In this document: one piece after another, positions 10,018-17,509 of the stretch | Layout of the letters: each line of letters opens with the position of its first letter | Position numbering within the stretch: position 1 is the stretch's first letter | Source: a virus | Taxonomy: Duplodnaviria > Heunggongvirae > Uroviricota > Caudoviricetes | Direction: 5' to 3' (one strand) | IMG/VR virus record: IMGVR_UViG_2529292908_000003 | Length of the DNA: 18,304 nt | Notes under the pieces: model-generated | Seen by the model: only the letters and a program-made list of their open reading frames with translations | The model's database searches: none | What the model was told of the DNA's origin: nothing | Program-made: the position numbers and the translations under genes

Positions 10018-12444
10018 ATGTCCAAAAATGAACGAATGGTGGGCATCAGCCGCAGAACACTCGTTAAATCTACCGCGATAGGTTCTCTGGCGCTGGCTGC
10101 AGGCGGTTTTTCTTTGCCGTTTACCCTGCGCAATGCAGCAGCAGCGGTACAACAGGCCCGCGAAAAAGTGGTCTGGGGTGCCTGTTCCGTCAACTGTGGT
10201 AGCCGCTGTGCACTTCGTCTACATGTTAAAGATAATGAAGTGACCTGGGTGGAAACTGACAATACCGGCAGCGATGAGTACGGCAACCATCAGGTACGCG
10301 CCTGTTTGCGCGGTCGCTCCATCCGCCGGCGTATTAATCATCCCGATCGCTTAAATTACCCAATGAAACGCGTGGGCAAACGCGGCGAAGGCAAATTCGA
10401 ACGGATTAGCTGGGATGAAGCCCTGGATACTATCGCCAGTAGCCTGAAGAAAACCGTCGAACAATATGGCAATGAGGCTGTATATATTCAGTACTCTTCG
10501 GGGATCGTTGGCGGCAATATGACCCGCTCTTCGCCATCAGCCTCGGCGGTCAAACGCCTGATGAACTGCTACGGCGGTTCACTCAACCAGTATGGCTCCT
10601 ACAGCACTGCGCAAATTTCCTGTGCCATGCCCTACACCTACGGCAGTAATGATGGCAACAGCACCACGGATATTGAAAACAGCAAGCTGGTCGTGATGTT
10701 TGGTAACAACCCGGCAGAAACCCGCATGAGCGGTGGTGGCATCACTTATCTTCTTGAAAAAGCGCGCGAGAAATCGAACGCCAAAATGATTGTTATCGAT
10801 CCGCGATATACCGATACGGCTGCCGGTCGTGAAGACGAATGGCTCCCTATTCGCCCGGGCACCGATGCCGCGCTGGTTGCGGGTATTGCCTGGGTATTGA
10901 TTAACGAAAATCTCGTTGATCAACCTTTTCTCGATAAATACTGCGTCGGCTATGACGAAAAAACCTTACCCGCAGATGCACCCAAAAATGGTCACTATAA
11001 AGCCTATATTCTTGGTGAAGGTGACGATAAAACAGCGAAAACGCCGCAGTGGGCTTCGCAAATTACCGGTATCCCGGAGGACCGTATCATCAAACTGGCG
11101 CGTGAAATTGGCACAGCAAAACCCGCTTATATCTGCCAGGGCTGGGGGCCACAACGCCAGGCAAACGGCGAACTGACTGCACGCGCTATTGCTATGTTAC
11201 CTATTTTGACGGGCAATGTCGGCATCAGCGGCGGAAATAGTGGCGCGCGTGAATCGACCTATACCATTACCATAGAACGCCTGCCGGTGCTGGATAATCC
11301 GGTCAAAACGTCAATCTCCTGCTTCAGCTGGACAGATGCTATCGATCATGGTCCGCAAATGACGGCAATCCGCGACGGCGTCCGCGGCAAAGATAAACTG
11401 GATGTGCCCATTAAGTTCATCTGGAACTACGCGGGAAATACCCTCGTTAATCAGCATTCTGACATCAACAAAACGCATGAAATTCTGCAGGACGAATCGA
11501 AATGCGAAATGATTGTGGTCATCGAAAACTTTATGACCTCATCGGCAAAATATGCCGACATTCTGCTGCCAGACCTGATGACCGTTGAGCAGGAAGATAT
11601 TATTCCTAACGACTACGCCGGTAACATGGGATATCTCATTTTCCTCCAGCCTGTCACCAGCGAAAAATTCGAACGCAAACCGATTTACTGGATCCTGAGT
11701 GAAGTCGCGAAACGTCTTGGACCTGACGTCTATCAAAAGTTCACAGAAGGTCGCACGCAGGAACAATGGTTACAACATCTGTACGCCAAAATGCTTGCCA
11801 AAGATCCGGCGTTACCGTCTTACGACGAACTGAAAAAAATGGGTATCTATAAGCGTAAAGATCCCAATGGCCATTTTGTCGCCTACAAAGCATTTCGTGA
11901 CGACCCCGAGGCAAATCCACTTAAAACGCCTTCCGGTAAGATTGAAATTTATTCCAGCAGGCTGGCGGAAATTGCCCGTACCTGGGAACTGGAAAAAGAT
12001 GAAGTGATAAGCCCATTGCCAGTTTATGCCTCAACCTTTGAAGGCTGGAACTCCCCTGAACGTAGAACCTTCCCACTGCAACTGTTTGGTTTCCATTACA
12101 AATCCCGTACTCACTCGACCTACGGCAATATTGATCTCCTGAAGGCTGCCTGCCGTCAGGAGGTGTGGATCAACCCTATAGATGCGCAGAAACGTGGGAT
12201 TGCCAACGGCGATATGGTGCGGGTGTTTAACCATCGTGGCGAAGTTCGGCTACCAGCCAAAGTAACACCACGTATTCTCCCTGGAGTTAGCGCTATGGGC
12301 CAGGGAGCCTGGCACGAGGCCAATATGTCTGGCGATAAAATCGACCATGGCGGCTGTGTGAATACGCTAACCACTCTGCGCCCTTCACCACTGGCGAAGG
12401 GAAACCCGCAGCACACTAATCTGGTCGAGATCGAAAAAATATAA
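10018..12444 (+). CDS. ynfE: Tat-exported molybdopterin oxidoreductase catalytic subunit YnfE (DMSO reductase family, putative selenate reductase)
   Basis: 808-aa ORF; twin-arginine signal ISRRTLVKSTAIGSLALAAGG; N-terminal Cys cluster CSVNCGSRC; GGGAG SD. Confidence 0.93.
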   Translation: MSKNERMVGISRRTLVKSTAIGSLALAAGGFSLPFTLRNAAAAVQQAREKVVWGACSVNCGSRCALRLHVKDNEVTWVETDNTGSDEYGNHQVRACLRGRSIRRRINHPDRLNYPMKRVGKRGEGKFERISWDEALDTIASSLKKTVEQYGNEAVYIQYSSGIVGGNMTRSSPSASAVKRLMNCYGGSLNQYGSYSTAQISCAMPYTYGSNDGNSTTDIENSKLVVMFGNNPAETRMSGGGITYLLEKAREKSNAKMIVIDPRYTDTAAGREDEWLPIRPGTDAALVAGIAWVLINENLVDQPFLDKYCVGYDEKTLPADAPKNGHYKAYILGEGDDKTAKTPQWASQITGIPEDRIIKLAREIGTAKPAYICQGWGPQRQANGELTARAIAMLPILTGNVGISGGNSGARESTYTITIERLPVLDNPVKTSISCFSWTDAIDHGPQMTAIRDGVRGKDKLDVPIKFIWNYAGNTLVNQHSDINKTHEILQDESKCEMIVVIENFMTSSAKYADILLPDLMTVEQEDIIPNDYAGNMGYLIFLQPVTSEKFERKPIYWILSEVAKRLGPDVYQKFTEGRTQEQWLQHLYAKMLAKDPALPSYDELKKMGIYKRKDPNGHFVAYKAFRDDPEANPLKTPSGKIEIYSSRLAEIARTWELEKDEVISPLPVYASTFEGWNSPERRTFPLQLFGFHYKSRTHSTYGNIDLLKAACRQEVWINPIDAQKRGIANGDMVRVFNHRGEVRLPAKVTPRILPGVSAMGQGAWHEANMSGDKIDHGGCVNTLTTLRPSPLAKGNPQHTNLVEIEKI

Positions 12445-14938: not shown

Positions 14939-15051
14939 ATGACCACACAATATGGATTTTTATCGATTCCAGCCGCTGTACTGGCTGTAAAACCTGCGAA
15001 CTGGCGTGCAAAGATTTTAAAGTTGGTTACGTATCGTTTAAAATCAATTAG
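14939..15051 (+). pseudogene. ynfG: ynfG remnant (4Fe-4S ferredoxin subunit): frameshift in a T5 run at 14957-14961, then truncation about 26 codons in
   Basis: ATG 14939 gives MTTQYGF; the ferredoxin motif IDSSRCTGCKTCELACKD lies in the +1 frame with no start codon, ends at TAG 15049-15051, and is followed by unrelated DNA. YnfG is about 205 aa in K-12 (recalled). Confidence 0.7.
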
Positions 15052-15095
15052 ATAGCCCGTCATTTCTGCGCTCACACGTCCCAACATTGAAAAAC

Positions 15096-15129
15096 ATGCA
15101 AAGCTTTGTAAGCCGATGCAAAGCTTTGT
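15096..15129. promoter_or_regulatory. Two copies of a 14-bp repeat ATGCAAAGCTTTGT, each containing the perfect 10-bp palindrome CAAAGCTTTG, spaced 20 bp centre to centre; operator-like
   Basis: Palindromes at 15099-15108 and 15119-15128, read directly; two-helical-turn spacing is typical of a dimeric repressor operator pair. Confidence 0.4.
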
Positions 15130-15215
15130 GTGTCTCACTTTTGTCCCAATACCAATCCGAATCCACCCTTTGTCATCATTGAGAAATGGCAAGGAAGAAA
15201 AGGATGTTACTGCAC

Positions 15216-15248
15216 GATTTGACAAATCCGCCAGAGCTATCGCATACT
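15216..15248 (+). promoter_or_regulatory. Promoter-like module A: palindrome GATTTGACAAATC overlapping a consensus -35 TTGACA (15219-15224), 18-bp spacer, -10-like CATACT
   Basis: 16-bp GATTTGACAAATCCGC is identical to 16628-16643; consensus -35; weak -10. Confidence 0.4.
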
Positions 15249-15266
15249 GACCGCACTACAACGTCA

Positions 15267-15302
15267 GCGGTCAACCGCACCCGATAGCTTTGCGGCTTTT
15301 TT
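15267..15302 (+). terminator. Attenuator/terminator-like element A: GCGG-tcaa-CCGC-(12 nt)-GCGG-c-UUUUUU
   Basis: Three short complementary segments allowing alternative pairings, followed by T6; same layout as 16692-16726. Confidence 0.4.
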
Positions 15303-15407
15303 ATGCCTGTTTACAGGTATCGCCATATCAATGGCGGGTCGAGAGAGCCTAATACAATACCCTTTCGGGAAATACGCTCCGCCGTCTGACGCGGTAGTTG
15401 AAGCCCG

Positions 15408-15416
15408 CCCCCCCCC
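15408..15416. repeat. Homopolymeric C9 tract about 40 bp upstream of the antirepressor-like gene A start
   Basis: Nine consecutive C at 15408-15416 (preceded by GCCCG), within the 5' leader of gene A. Confidence 0.9.
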
Positions 15417-15458
15417 ACTAAGGTGGCAGTCAATACTAAAACGTCAGGAGTCATAATT

Positions 15459-15743
15459 ATGACTAATCAACTCATTCCCGTTTTCGATGGAACCATCAAC
15501 AACGAACCAGTTTTACTTTGCAATGCTCGCAATCTGCACGCTTTTCTTGGTATTGGTAAAATGTTTGCTCACTGGATCAAGGACAGGCTGGGTGAATATG
15601 GATTCGTTGAAAATCAAGATTTTGTGATTGCTTGCCAAAATTGGCAAGCAAAAGGTAGAGGCGGTCACAACCGCAAGGAATACCACCTCACCCTCGACAC
15701 AGCCAAAGAGCTTGCGATGGTTGACGACTGCGTCCAATACTGA
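15459..15743 (+). CDS. Antirepressor-like protein, AntA-type N-terminal domain only (truncated paralog of the gene at 15993)
   Basis: AGGAG SD 8 nt before ATG 15459; product MTNQLIPVFDGTINNEPVLLCNARNLHAFLG...HLTLDTAKELAMV is about 60 percent identical to the N-terminus of the next gene, then diverges and stops; 44 bp (15681-15724) are identical to 16209-16252. Confidence 0.6.
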   Translation: MTNQLIPVFDGTINNEPVLLCNARNLHAFLGIGKMFAHWIKDRLGEYGFVENQDFVIACQNWQAKGRGGHNRKEYHLTLDTAKELAMVDDCVQY

Positions 15744-15790
15744 CTATACTCCGCGCCGAGGCCTCGAAAACCTCCCAAAAGCGGATTAAA

Positions 15791-15816
15791 CCAACCCCGT
15801 CAGTGTTGGATTTTTT
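15791..15816 (+). terminator. Putative intrinsic terminator after gene A (stem CCAAC/GTTGG, loop CCCGTCAGT, then A-UUUUUU)
   Basis: Hairpin plus T6, 48 bp after the gene A stop; loop sequence CCCGTCAGT recurs at 16704-16712. Confidence 0.45.
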
Positions 15817-15992
15817 ATGCCTGTTATTCAGTGATAGCACAGTGTGCGGTCACATCCCCGATCAATGTCGGGAGGGCGACGAATACAACACCCGCAAGGG
15901 GAATAAGTCCGCGGTATCTTTTGGGCCGTTTCGAGCCTCCCGGCACCACATCTTGTGGTGGCATTTCTCGAAAAAAGCCAAAGGAGGTCATC

Positions 15993-16622
15993 ATGACCAC
16001 TCAACTCATCCCTGTGTTTGAAGGTACAATCTCAAATGAACCTACGCTTCTGGTGAACGCGCGTGATTTGCATGGATTTTTAGAGGTAGGTAAAGATTTT
16101 TCTAACTGGATACGGGCCAGGCTAAACGAGTATGGATTCGTAGAAAATTTAGACTACATTCTATTTTCGCCAAATTTGGCGAAAACTCCAGGCCGCCGCC
16201 GCAAGGATTACCACCTCACCCTCGACACAGCCAAAGAGCTTGCGATGGTTGAACGTAACGAAAAAGGCCGCCAGATACGCCGCTACTTCATCGAGTGCGA
16301 AAAGAAACTTCGCAACATTCAGCCAGTACAAGCAGAACCACAGCCGCAATTCACAGCCGAGGAAATCATCCTCCTTTGCTACATGCAGCTCTGGATGGAA
16401 AAAGCCCAGGACATCAGCAAACACCTGTATCCCATTATGAAAGAGCTGAACTCCTCATACACGAACAAGCTGTATGACATTGCGTTTGAGACCATCTACA
16501 TGGTGACGAAGAACAGAGACGCGCTACTGAGGGAGGTAACACGTCTCGACATGTCAAGTTCCGTTATCCAGCGGGCCATGCCAATGCTGAAAAGCCTGCG
16601 GGCAAGACAATTCGAGTTTTAA
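15993..16622 (+). CDS. Phage antirepressor-like protein (AntA-type N-terminal domain plus a C-terminal domain shared with the gene at 16877)
   Basis: AGGAGG SD 5 nt before ATG 15993; MTTQLIPVFEGTISNEPTLLVNARDLHGFLEVGKDFSNWIRARLNEYGFVE...HLTLDTAKELAMVERNEKGRQIRRYFIE, and a C-terminus PQFTAEEIILLCYMQLWMEKAQ...LRARQFEF shared with the next gene. The track's 54-codon upstream extension has no RBS. Confidence 0.75.
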   Translation: MTTQLIPVFEGTISNEPTLLVNARDLHGFLEVGKDFSNWIRARLNEYGFVENLDYILFSPNLAKTPGRRRKDYHLTLDTAKELAMVERNEKGRQIRRYFIECEKKLRNIQPVQAEPQPQFTAEEIILLCYMQLWMEKAQDISKHLYPIMKELNSSYTNKLYDIAFETIYMVTKNRDALLREVTRLDMSSSVIQRAMPMLKSLRARQFEF

Positions 16623-16627
16623 GGCCA

Positions 16628-16660
16628 GATTTGACAAATCCGCATTAACGGGGATATATT
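16628..16660 (+). promoter_or_regulatory. Promoter-like module C: palindrome GATTTGACAAATC with -35 TTGACA (16631-16636), 18-bp spacer, -10 TATATT (16655-16660)
   Basis: Consensus -35, 5 of 6 -10; 16-bp identity with module A; begins 6 bp after the gene B stop. Confidence 0.5.
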
Positions 16661-16691
16661 CCGCTCCATGGTGCTGAACACACCTTCGAAA

Positions 16692-16726
16692 GCGGAAACC
16701 GCGCCCGTCAGTCATGCGGATTTTTT
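16692..16726 (+). terminator. Attenuator/terminator-like element C: GCGG-aaa-CCGC-(13 nt, containing CCCGTCAGT)-GCGG-a-UUUUUU
   Basis: Same three-segment layout as 15267-15302 despite different intervening sequence; T6 at 16721-16726. Confidence 0.4.
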
Positions 16727-16876
16727 ATGTCCATTTTTCAGATATGGTCGGGTAGCGCGTATACCGAAAAACAGCCGTAAGGCTAAGGATGCGGGCCGAA
16801 CTTTCGACGGTGTTCAAGTACCCGACCGCCCTGCTGAACACGGGGTGATCTGAACGAATCGAAAGGACATAAAACT

Positions 16877-17509
16877 ATGAGCACTCAACTTGTATTCCAC
16901 AATGTTCAATTCCAGACCGTTCAACGAGATGGTCTACTGTGGTTGTCTGCCCCCCAAATAGCCAGCGCGTTACAATATGCAGATCAAAGCTCGGTAACAC
17001 GCATCTATGCCCGTCACGCAGATGAATTCACAAACGGTATGACAGCCTCGGTCAAATTGACCGATCCTAAAGGGGACAAGCAAGAGACTCGCATCTTCTC
17101 ATTACGCGGCGCTCACCTAATAGCGATGTTTGCTCGAACTCCAATAGCAAAAGAGTTTCGTCGCTGGGTATTGGATATTCTGGACCGTGAAGCTGAAAAA
17201 AGCGCTATACCGCCACAACCTCATATTCAGCCTCAATTCACAGCAGAAGACATCATCCTGCTCTGCTACGTTCAACTCTGGATGGAAAAAGCACAACAAC
17301 TCAGTAAACAGCTATACCCCGTCATGAGAGAACTGAACTCTGATTACTATGGAAAGCTGTTTGATCTGGCCTACGAAACTCGTCATATAACCAACCGGAC
17401 TCGCGACACATTGCTCCGCGAAGCAGCAAAACTTGATCCCGCCAACTATACGGTGCACAGGGCCAGAAGTATGCTGGCGCAACTAAGAGCAAGACAATTT
17501 GAATTCTGA
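16877..17509 (+). CDS. Phage antirepressor-like protein (Bro-N-type N-terminal domain plus the C-terminal domain shared with the gene at 15993)
   Basis: AAGGA SD; N-terminus MSTQLVFHNVQFQTVQRDGLLWLSAPQIASALQY (Bro-N-like); C-terminus PQFTAEDIILLCYVQLWMEKAQ...LRARQFEF about 65 percent identical to the preceding gene. Confidence 0.75.
   Translation: MSTQLVFHNVQFQTVQRDGLLWLSAPQIASALQYADQSSVTRIYARHADEFTNGMTASVKLTDPKGDKQETRIFSLRGAHLIAMFARTPIAKEFRRWVLDILDREAEKSAIPPQPHIQPQFTAEDIILLCYVQLWMEKAQQLSKQLYPVMRELNSDYYGKLFDLAYETRHITNRTRDTLLREAAKLDPANYTVHRARSMLAQLRARQFEF

What the first reader, a model, noticed from the sequence alone, without database searches (positions are those of the whole stretch)
15096..15129. 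Twin perfect 10-bp palindromes CAAAGCTTTG at two-helical-turn spacing at the island boundary
A 14-bp direct repeat ATGCAAAGCTTTGT occurs twice, 20 bp apart, each enclosing a perfect palindrome. This arrangement is typical of tandem operators bound cooperatively by a dimeric HTH repressor (phage immunity-region style). It lies between the ynfG remnant and the first promoter-like module, yet no repressor gene is visible nearby in the window, so the cognate regulator may lie elsewhere in the element, or this is an orphan operator.
Basis: seen in the sequence. Interest (0 to 1): 0.5.

Follow-up and report, generated by a model that had tools for sequence, protein, structure and literature searches.

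The report
Prophage attachment-site arm, not orphan operator
The twin palindromes are real, but they are a standard part of the attachment-site arm of a P22-type integrase/excisionase module at the end of a prophage inserted in ynfG, where they form a conserved hairpin between integrase-binding sites, so they are not an orphan repressor operator.

Summary
In detail: ATGCAAAGCTTTGT occurs at 15096-15109 and 15116-15129, and each copy encloses CAAAGCTTTG. The repressor-operator reading is not supported.

The repeats lie 75-114 bp inside the right end (attR) of a ~60-kb Stx-like prophage inserted in ynfG at a 7-bp core, TTTAAAG (15016-15022). A P22-family integrase (71-73% identical) and an intact P22-like excisionase are encoded at the far end.

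The same block sits in the attachment-site arm of P22, phage L and SfII, which have a different core (the thrW tRNA gene) and different downstream genes. So it travels with int/xis.

It lies between GTCCCA-type integrase arm sites. There are five on the two arms, all in one orientation.

A direct repeat of a palindrome is also an inverted repeat. Here it gives a 17-bp hairpin that relatives keep through compensatory changes while the direct repeat and the palindromes decay. Two phage records annotate it as a predicted terminator.

All arm classes, including those without the hairpin, share four A-tract boxes 10 bp apart. The twin AAAG cores are boxes 2 and 4. This is the usual excisionase-site layout.

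The motif is absent from the rest of the prophage. This is a new member of a known kind, of low interest.

The parts
14940..15022 (+). 5' remnant of ynfG (84 nt), cut by prophage integration
   Evidence: RefSeq annotates a '4Fe-4S binding protein, missing C-terminus' here. Joining this remnant to the ynfG 3' part from the far end gives an intact ynfG, found in 5,235 of 5,426 genomes.
15016..15022 (.). att core / crossover segment TTTAAAG, shared by attR, attL and attB
   Evidence: attR reads gcaaagatTTTAAAGttggtt and attL reads caacaacTTTAAAGatcttgg. The reconstructed attP would carry the palindrome CAACTTTAAAGTTG.
15042..15054 (+). IHF-like site AATCAATTAGATA (12 of 13 to WATCAANNNNTTR); inferred only
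   Evidence: Read directly from the sequence. It aligns with GTCAACAACATA of the P22-type arm. A review table states that the P22 attP has IHF sites.
15066..15083 (+). Integrase arm-type site 'a' (GTCCCA at 15078-15083) with its conserved context GCGCTCACACGTCCCA
   Evidence: Invariant in all seven arm classes, partly because it served as the scan anchor. The GTCCCA motif also occurs twice in tandem in the other arm, inside the int 3' end.
15090..15123 (+). Four A-tract boxes 10 bp apart: AAAAAC 15090-15095, AAAG 15100-15103, AAG 15110-15112, AAAG 15120-15123. Candidate Xis-binding and bending array
   Evidence: The boxes start at spacer positions 7/8, 17, 27/28 and 36-38 in almost every class, including those without the hairpin (SfII lacks box 4 and class F lacks box 3). 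None of 2000 shuffles matched the phasing. AAAAnATnnAAA is invariant across the family.
15094..15133 (+). The finding itself: twin 14-mers, equal to a 17-bp hairpin (arms 15094-15110 and 15117-15133, loop 15111-15116)
   Evidence: Searches show the repeats. RNA folding gives -22.7 kcal/mol, z -5.8. The scan calls it terminator-like. The homologous segment is annotated as a terminator in the phage L and SfII records.
15132..15148 (+). Integrase arm-type sites 'b' (GTCTCA 15132-15137) and 'c' (GTCCCA 15143-15148), with the T run 15139-15142 between them
   Evidence: The block GTCyCnnTTTTGTCyCA is conserved in all classes.
15228..15301 (+). Second, strong stem-loop with a T6 run (intrinsic terminator-like). 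Not part of the att module
   Evidence: Folding gives -30.8 kcal/mol. The stems are conserved and the loop differs in phages 75/02 Stx and PhiR5_2. The segment is shared with many Stx phages.

Best explanation
The twin palindromes are the middle of the 'P arm' of attR. This is the cis-acting recombination site at the end of a ~60-kb Stx-like prophage that integrated into ynfG using a P22-family integrase and excisionase.

The order from the 7-bp core TTTAAAG is: an IHF-like site, integrase arm site a (GTCCCA), a 48-bp spacer holding the twin repeats, then arm sites b and c.

Shown here:
- The placement at the junction.
- The homology to the P22/L/SfII attP arm.
- The linkage to int/xis rather than to neighbouring cargo genes.
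- Conservation of the 17-bp hairpin by compensatory changes.
- Four A-tract boxes 10 bp apart in every arm class.

Inferred:
1. At the DNA level, the spacer is where Xis binds head-to-tail on the phased AAAG boxes. It would bend the arm so that Int bound at the arm sites can reach the core. This would promote excision at attR and inhibit integration.
2. At the RNA level, the inverted-repeat form that makes the repeats look like palindromes is kept because the int-sense transcript folds into a hairpin followed by a U run. This would act as a terminator or processing element like lambda tI/sib. It lies downstream of int in the circular phage and is separated from int in the prophage. In this lysogen it is also the first barrier to read-through from ynfEF into the antirepressor genes.
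For: Junction and module:
- The core is shared by attR and attL, and the rebuilt attB is an intact ynfG in 5,235 genomes.
- Int is at the far end, with a protein accession identical in O104:H4 and in the window's own strain FORC_043. Xis is an intact 123-aa ORF.
- Int is 71-73% identical to P22-type Int. Xis is 72-74% identical overall and 80% in the N-terminal DNA-binding part. Family assignments are PF00589, HTH_17 and PHROG excisionase.

Homology:
- The attP arm of ST160 is 100% identical to two P22 records and to phage L over the 341-bp attP segment queried (98.2% to other P22 records such as AF217253 and P22-pbi). It carries CACACGTCCCA...AAAAACATGCAAAGCcTTGcAAGCCGATGCAAAGCTTTGTGTGTCcC..TTTTGTCCCA, with a thrW core and gtrA downstream.

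Arm sites:
- Four of the eight forward-strand GTCCCA copies in 59.9 kb lie in the two att arms, all in one orientation, plus the variant GTCTCA.
- The motif tracks the type of the Int N-terminal domain. It is present in APSE-2 and replaced by GGCACA/GTGACA in HK446 and Erwinia phage 59.

Hairpin:
- 94% of cells are paired over 14 distinct variants, and 4 pairs show changes on both sides (1 of 500 shuffles reached this).
- One variant keeps 17 of 17 pairs while direct-repeat identity falls to 7 of 14 and the palindromes to 2-3 of 5 pairs.
- The G-U pairs fit the int-sense strand.
- The hairpin persists in HK446-like phages where the P22-type arm sites have decayed.
- Two records annotate it as a terminator.

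Xis array:
- The boxes are phased 10 bp apart across all classes (SfII lacks box 4 and class F lacks box 3).
- Classes A, B and D share nearly the same Xis DNA-binding domain but not the palindromes.
- Recombination directionality factors typically bind tandem repeats one helical turn apart and bend DNA, and P22 Xis binds cooperatively and bends att DNA (PMC7498355).
Against: - No binding or transcript data exist for this element.
- The primary P22 footprinting papers (Smith-Mungo 1994; Mattis 2008) were not available. Placing the P22 Xis footprint in this spacer therefore rests on position, on general properties of such factors and on my memory.
- The terminator annotations in the phage L and SfII records were made by prediction programs, and the two records put it on opposite strands.
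- On the int-sense strand the U run is only 4 nt long and lies 5 nt after the stem. The stem has only 5 G-C pairs.
- Arm classes C-F lack the long hairpin and have only weak alternatives (z -0.4 to -4.8). The hairpin is therefore not needed for recombination in the family.
- The covariation comes from few independent lineages. It is partly confounded because four equivalent half-sites evolving together would also give paired changes.
- The A-tract shuffle test does not correct for shared ancestry.
Confidence: 0.72

Rival explanations
1. It is only a transcription terminator or retroregulatory hairpin and has no role in Xis binding. The inverted repeat is an intrinsic, possibly bidirectional, terminator that happens to sit between integrase arm sites.
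For: The hairpin is the feature kept by compensatory change, while the direct repeat decays even though Xis is nearly identical. It persists in HK446-like phages outside any functional P22-type arm, between convergent int and tail-fibre genes. An A run lies upstream and a T run downstream, which fits a bidirectional terminator. Two records predict a terminator here.
Against: Classes C-F keep the same spacer length and the phased A-tract boxes without the long hairpin. That points to a DNA-level constraint independent of the hairpin. In all characterised lambda-type systems the excisionase site lies in this arm next to arm-type sites, and no other free stretch is obvious in this short arm.
Confidence: 0.15
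2. It is only a set of Xis binding sites, with two strong 14-bp direct repeats 20 bp apart like lambda X1/X2. On this view the hairpin potential is an accident of the site sequence.
For: The position is between arm-type sites at +75 to +114 from the core. The 20-bp spacing with weaker boxes in between resembles lambda X1-X1.5-X2. The boxes are phased.
Against: In SfII-type arms the two repeats share only 7-9 of 14 positions, although the Xis DNA-binding domain is almost unchanged. The 17-bp pairing is nevertheless preserved, including two or more double changes.
Confidence: 0.08
3. One reading: tandem operators for a dimeric HTH repressor that controls a nearby promoter (for example for the ant genes), with the repressor encoded elsewhere or lost.
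For: Each repeat is a perfect palindrome, the spacing is two helical turns, and antirepressor genes lie downstream.
Against: No promoter-like site overlaps the repeats. A strong terminator and about 330 bp separate them from the first ant gene. Nothing within 2 mismatches of the 14-mer, and no other copy of the 10-mer, occurs anywhere else in the prophage, and the cI/cro intergenic region carries unrelated palindromes. The same block in P22, SfII and HK446 precedes unrelated genes. The palindromes are not conserved in relatives.
Confidence: 0.03
4. The repeats are themselves integrase arm-type sites.
For: They are direct repeats in an att arm. A half-match, GATGCAAAG, occurs in the other arm at the int stop codon.
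Against: A much better arm-type candidate exists. GTCCCA is present on both arms in one orientation (two copies in the P' arm; GTCCCA, GTCTCA and GTCCCA in the P arm) and tracks the Int N-terminal domain type. APSE-2 has the GTCCCA sites and the same Int N-terminal type but no twin repeat.
Confidence: 0.02

Closest known systems
Bacteriophage P22 attP P arm (also phage L, ST64T, ST104, SfII, SfV and similar)
   Same: The sequence block is homologous: arm site a, then AAAAACATGCAAAGCyTTGyAAGCCGATGCAAAGCTTTGTGT, then arm sites b and c. Int and Xis are homologous (71-74% identical). The order xis-int-core-arm is the same, and there are two tandem GTCCCA sites inside the int 3' end.
   Different: The core and target differ: 7-bp TTTAAAG inside ynfG instead of the thrW tRNA gene. 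The distance from the core to site a is about 14 bp shorter. Here both repeats are perfect palindromes, whereas P22 has one imperfect copy. The downstream cargo is antirepressor genes instead of gtrABC. The host phage is a 933W/Stx-like podovirus rather than a P22-like one.
Lambda attP P arm with the X1-X1.5-X2 Xis sites
   Same: Two good direct repeats lie 20 bp apart with weaker boxes in between. They sit in the arm opposite int, about 70-110 bp from the core, next to Int arm-type sites. An excisionase with a (winged) helix-turn-helix domain is encoded beside int.
   Different: There is no sequence similarity. Here the sites lie between arm-type sites and also form a long hairpin. P22-type Xis is larger (116-123 aa). 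Binding has not been tested here.
Lambda tI/sib retroregulator
   Same: It is a hairpin with a U run downstream of int across the att core, so integration separates it from int.
   Different: Lambda sib lies outside the protein-binding part of attP, whereas this one is embedded between arm sites. Termination and RNase III cleavage are untested. The U run is short.

Membership tests
att site arm of a heterobivalent (lambda/P22-type) tyrosine integrase | Lies next to a core sequence shared by attL, attR and the empty attB | tested here: met
   TTTAAAG is present at both junctions. The rebuilt attB is an intact ynfG in 5,235 genomes.
att site arm of a heterobivalent (lambda/P22-type) tyrosine integrase | A cognate tyrosine integrase and excisionase are encoded in the same element | tested here: met
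   Int matches PF00589 and is 71-73% identical to P22-type Int. Xis matches HTH_17 and PHROG excisionase and is an intact 123-aa ORF, also in FORC_043.
att site arm of a heterobivalent (lambda/P22-type) tyrosine integrase | Repeated arm-type integrase sites on both arms, distinct from the core sites | tested here: met
   Five GTCCCA/GTCTCA copies lie on the two arms, all in one orientation. They are conserved in relatives and track the Int N-terminal type. Binding itself cannot be tested with these tools.
att site arm of a heterobivalent (lambda/P22-type) tyrosine integrase | Sequence homology to an experimentally defined attP (P22) | tested here: met
   The block aligns with the attP region of P22, phage L and ST160, where the records annotate the attP core.
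Excisionase (recombination directionality factor) binding array | Same-strand repeats spaced one helical turn apart, in the arm, next to arm-type sites | tested here: met
   Four A-tract boxes start at positions 7/8, 17, 27/28 and 36-38 in almost every arm class (SfII lacks box 4 and class F lacks box 3). The general rule is taken from PMC7498355.
Excisionase (recombination directionality factor) binding array | Xis binds and bends this DNA | not testable with these tools
   The P22 footprint paper is not held. No DNA-protein modelling tool is available.
Rho-independent terminator / tI-sib-like hairpin | A stable stem-loop conserved by covariation | tested here: met
   Folding gives -22.7 kcal/mol, z -5.8. 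94% of cells are paired and 4 pairs show double changes.
Rho-independent terminator / tI-sib-like hairpin | A G+C-rich stem followed directly by a U run | tested here: inconclusive
   Only 5 of 17 pairs are G-C. On the + strand a U4 run lies 5 nt after the stem, and on the - strand a U5 run lies 2-4 nt after it. The two database records put the terminator on opposite strands.
Rho-independent terminator / tI-sib-like hairpin | Transcripts end or are processed here | not testable with these tools
   No transcript data are available.
Tandem operators of an HTH repressor (immunity-type) | Overlaps or flanks a promoter that it controls | tested here: not met
   No promoter-like site lies at 15084-15150. 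A strong terminator lies between the repeats and the ant genes.
Tandem operators of an HTH repressor (immunity-type) | The motif recurs at the repressor's own gene or at other operators in the element | tested here: not met
   No other copy of the 10-mer and nothing within 2 mismatches of the 14-mer occurs in the 59.9-kb prophage (the closest sequences differ at 3 positions), and the 10-mer and 14-mer are absent from the FORC_043 int-to-immunity region.
Tandem operators of an HTH repressor (immunity-type) | The dyad symmetry of each site is conserved in relatives | tested here: not met
   The within-repeat dyads fall to 2-4 of 5 pairs in SfII-type arms and are absent in classes D-F.

The most novel reading that the evidence does not exclude
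The spacer is a dual-coded element. The same 40 bp would serve as the Xis-binding and bending array on DNA, and as a tI/sib-like hairpin on the int-sense transcript that integration separates from int. P22-family phages would then have lambda-style retroregulation built into attP itself. In ynfG lysogens the hairpin would also shield three antirepressor genes from read-through of the anaerobically expressed ynfEFGH operon, which could couple host physiology to prophage induction if the barrier is leaky.
Probability: 0.2. Interest if true: 0.45.

Novelty: new member of a known kind. Interest (0 to 1): 0.2.

Why it matters
The main value is in correct annotation. Perfect palindromes at a prophage boundary look like repressor operators, but here they are the cis-acting arm of the integration/excision module.

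The result defines the att site of the ynfG-integrating Stx-like phages, including the POCJ13 and 75/02 Stx-converting Shigella phages and an O104:H4 prophage. The core is TTTAAAG, there are five GTCCCA-type integrase sites, and there is a candidate Xis array. This is useful for predicting whether these prophages can excise and for building integration vectors.

A smaller point may interest recombination specialists. The inverted-repeat form of the Xis spacer is under its own selection, which suggests an RNA-level role (terminator or retroregulator) embedded in attP.

Tried and rejected
- Base-level footprinting with the closest phages (POCJ13, 75/02 Stx, PhiR5_2, O104:H4) gave nothing. The arm is 100% identical from the core to about +230.
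- I first argued from HK446 that the repeats co-vary with Xis rather than Int. I dropped this argument. The HK446 copy lies distal to its own GGCACA-type arm and looks like a decayed P22-type arm. Some contigs that join an HK446-type int to an SfII-type arm are best read as hybrid att sites of tandem prophages.
- The primary P22 literature could not be read, and several full-text searches gave no site coordinates.
- Rfam has no family for the hairpin. It gave only a spurious mir-19 match at 26 bits.
- The PDB sequence search found no solved relative of this Xis.
- The one genome-collection scan gave 15 loci. Three Flavobacteria hits and two E. coli-like contigs labelled as Bacillus/Bacillota MAGs are unrelated or probable contamination and were ignored.
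- An operator role for the ant genes, and a role as integrase arm sites, were considered and rejected. The reasons are given under the rival explanations.

Full report
**Observation.** The window reads ...GAAAAAC ATGCAAAGCTTTGT AAGCCG ATGCAAAGCTTTGT GTGTCTCAC TTTTGTCCCAAT.... The 14-mer lies at 15096-15109 and 15116-15129, 20 bp start to start. Each copy encloses the perfect palindrome CAAAGCTTTG, at 15099-15108 and 15119-15128. The count of the 10-mer alone is not significant: 2 found against 0.88 expected, and 46 of 200 shuffles had at least 2. The exact 14-bp local duplication is significant. No simulated window out of 200 had a local repeat longer than 12 bp. A direct repeat of a palindrome is also an inverted repeat. 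Here 15094-15110 pairs with 15117-15133, giving 17 pairs and a 6-nt loop.

**Context.** The window carries ynfE, ynfF and the first 84 nt of ynfG, followed by foreign DNA. It is 100% identical to E. coli FORC_043 and related strains. The junction is 99.8% identical to E. coli O104:H4. In O104:H4 strain 2011C-3493 the insert is a 59.9-kb 933W/Stx-like prophage without stx. At its far end are a tyrosine integrase, an overlapping excisionase ORF and the rest of ynfG. FORC_043 has the same integrase protein (WP_001387389.1). Its 123-aa Xis ORF is identical and intact, although the RefSeq annotation (NCBI's PGAP pipeline) calls it a pseudogene.

The two junctions share TTTAAAG: attR reads gcaaagatTTTAAAGttggtt and attL reads caacaacTTTAAAGatcttgg. 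Joining the host flanks gives an intact ynfG, found in 5,235 of 5,426 complete E. coli genomes. The finding therefore lies 75-114 bp inside attR, in the arm opposite int. This corresponds to the lambda 'P arm'. In the circular phage this arm lies directly downstream of int.

**Family.** The integrase is 71-73% identical to P22-type and SfII integrases, 69% to APSE-2, 56% to Erwinia phage 59 and 53% to HK446. Xis is 72-74% identical to P22/SfII Xis, and 80% over the N-terminal DNA-binding part. It matches Pfam HTH_17 and the PHROG excisionase family.

The attP arm of the P22-like phage ST160 is 100% identical to two P22 records and to phage L over the 341-bp attP segment queried, and 98.2% to other P22 records such as AF217253 and P22-pbi. 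It contains the same block: CTGCGCTCACACGTCCCAtcttcGAAAAACATGCAAAGCcTTGcAAGCCGATGCAAAGCTTTGTGTGTCcCgTTTTTGTCCCA. Yet its core is the thrW tRNA gene and gtrA follows it. SfII has a diverged version. HK446 has a copy distal to its own arm.

A second scan added more. The block therefore belongs to the int/xis/att module and not to the neighbouring genes. Those genes are antirepressors here, gtrABC in P22 and SfII, and a tail fibre gene in HK446.

**Integrase arm sites.** GTCCCA-type motifs flank the repeats at 15078-15083, 15132-15137 (GTCTCA) and 15143-15148. Two more occur in tandem in the other arm, inside the int 3' end (GATGTCCCAAATTTGTCCCACC). Four of the eight forward-strand GTCCCA copies in the whole prophage are in the two arms. 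The motif is kept in P22, SfII, APSE-2 and all arm classes. It is replaced by GGCACA/GTGACA in HK446 and Erwinia phage 59, whose Int N-terminal domains are of another type. These are the best candidates for arm-type Int sites. From memory, three sites in the P arm and two in the P' arm matches the published P22 map, but I could not verify this.

**What is conserved in the repeats.** Among 13-14 distinct variants of the P22/ynfG type (A), the SfII type (B) and the HK446 type, the 17-bp hairpin is 94% paired. Four pairs have changed on both sides: C-G to U-A, U-A to C-G, and two A-U to G-C. One SfII-type variant keeps 17 of 17 pairs, three of them G-U and valid only on the int-sense strand. In that variant the two '14-mers' share only 7 of 14 positions and the palindromes keep 2-3 of 5 pairs. 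A Citrobacter copy keeps 16 of 17 pairs, and HK446-like copies keep 13-15 even though their flanking P22-type arm sites have decayed. Folding gives -22.7 kcal/mol (z -5.8) on the int-sense strand and -16.7 (z -2.4) on the other strand. The consensus scan calls it terminator-like. The SfII record (int-sense strand) and the phage L record (opposite strand) annotate exactly this segment as a terminator, though only from prediction programs.

Selection therefore acts on the inverted repeat. It does not act on the palindromes or on the direct repeat as such.

**A DNA-level feature that does not depend on the hairpin.** Other arm classes (C-F) have the same arm sites and the same spacer length, but no long hairpin. 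Aligning one representative per class shows an invariant AAAAnATnnAAA. It also shows A-tract boxes starting at spacer positions 7/8, 17, 27/28 and 36-38. All four are present in five of the seven classes. SfII lacks box 4 (TGAGG) and class F lacks box 3. No shuffle out of 2000 matched this phasing, although the test is not corrected for shared ancestry. In the window these boxes are AAAAAC 15090, AAAG 15100, AAG 15110 and AAAG 15120. The two AAAG cores of the twin repeat are boxes 2 and 4.

Classes A, B and D have almost the same Xis DNA-binding domain. What their arms share is the phased boxes, not the palindromes. Same-strand repeats one helical turn apart, next to arm-type sites, are the usual layout for excisionase binding. 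P22 Xis is reported to bind cooperatively and to bend att DNA strongly (PMC7498355; PMC4111918).

**Against the operator reading.**
- No promoter-like site overlaps the repeats.
- About 330 bp separate them from the first ant gene. That stretch holds a strong terminator (15228-15301, -30.8 kcal/mol, T6) and an sRNA-Xcc1-like element.
- No other copy of the 10-mer and nothing within 2 mismatches of the 14-mer occurs in the rest of the prophage (the closest sequences differ at 3 positions). The cI/cro intergenic region of FORC_043 carries unrelated palindromes.
- The 81-bp arm occurs once per genome in 82 of 5,426 E. coli genomes.

**Mechanism, with shown and inferred steps marked.**
- Shown: the element is the attR P arm of a P22-family module. 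It has conserved integrase-type sites, a conserved hairpin and phased A-tract boxes.
- Inferred: Xis binds the boxes and bends the arm, so that Int bridging the arm sites and the core can carry out excision.
- Inferred: the int-sense RNA hairpin acts as a terminator or as a tI/sib-like element that integration separates from int. In this lysogen it is the first barrier to ynfEF read-through.

I put 0.72 on this combined picture. That the element is an att arm, and not a repressor operator, I consider nearly certain. The rivals are terminator only (0.15), Xis sites only (0.08), repressor operator (0.03) and integrase arm sites (0.02).

**Novelty.** The P22 attP is a characterised system, and relatives already carry a predicted-terminator annotation. 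This is a new member of a known kind, with a new core in ynfG. The one modestly new point is that the inverted-repeat form of the Xis spacer is maintained by compensatory change.

Noticed in passing
window 15333-15417 (+): Full-length match to the Rfam family sRNA-Xcc1 (RF02221): 49.9 bits against a gathering score of 53, E 7.7e-8. It lies between the att arm and the first antA gene.
   Followed up: no
window 15219-15301 (+): A sigma-70-like promoter (TTGACA-18-CATACT, 10 of 12) is followed directly by a long stem-loop with a T6 run (-30.8 kcal/mol). This could be a small RNA or a strong terminator. The stems are conserved and the loop differs in phages 75/02 Stx and PhiR5_2. The segment 15210-15362 is about 83% identical to a segment found in many of the 212 matching phage records, most of them Stx phages.
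   Followed up: partly
window 15459-17509 (+): Three tandem antirepressor-type genes: an AntA fragment, AntA+P22_AR_C and Bro-N+P22_AR_C. TraR/DksA and DUF4752 genes follow. All are transcribed inward from attR, so in the circular phage they lie downstream of int across attP.
   Followed up: partly
L002 5204-5758 and L140 8598-9137 (far end of the prophage): The ynfG 3' part next to int is annotated as a complete 184-aa CDS in O104:H4 but as a pseudogene in FORC_043. The phage side supplies a possible new GTG start just upstream of the core, so a shortened YnfG might still be made.
   Followed up: no
L002 6815-7186 (-) and L140 about 10209-10580 (-): The RefSeq annotation (PGAP) marks the excisionase gene as an incomplete pseudogene in both genomes, but the ORF is intact (123 aa). 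It overlaps the int start by about 124 nt, as in P22.
   Followed up: yes
L042, L069, L079, L092, L099 (viral contigs): An HK446-type int/xis, whose P' arm carries GGCACA sites, is followed directly by an SfII-type P arm with GTCCCA sites across the thrW core. These are probably hybrid att sites between tandem prophages at thrW.
   Followed up: partly
L143 and L148 (genome contigs): Contigs labelled as Bacillus or Bacillota metagenome-assembled genomes carry an E. coli/Shigella-type phage arm. L148 is identical to an E. coli contig over the ~107 bases compared. This is probably contamination of the assemblies.
   Followed up: no
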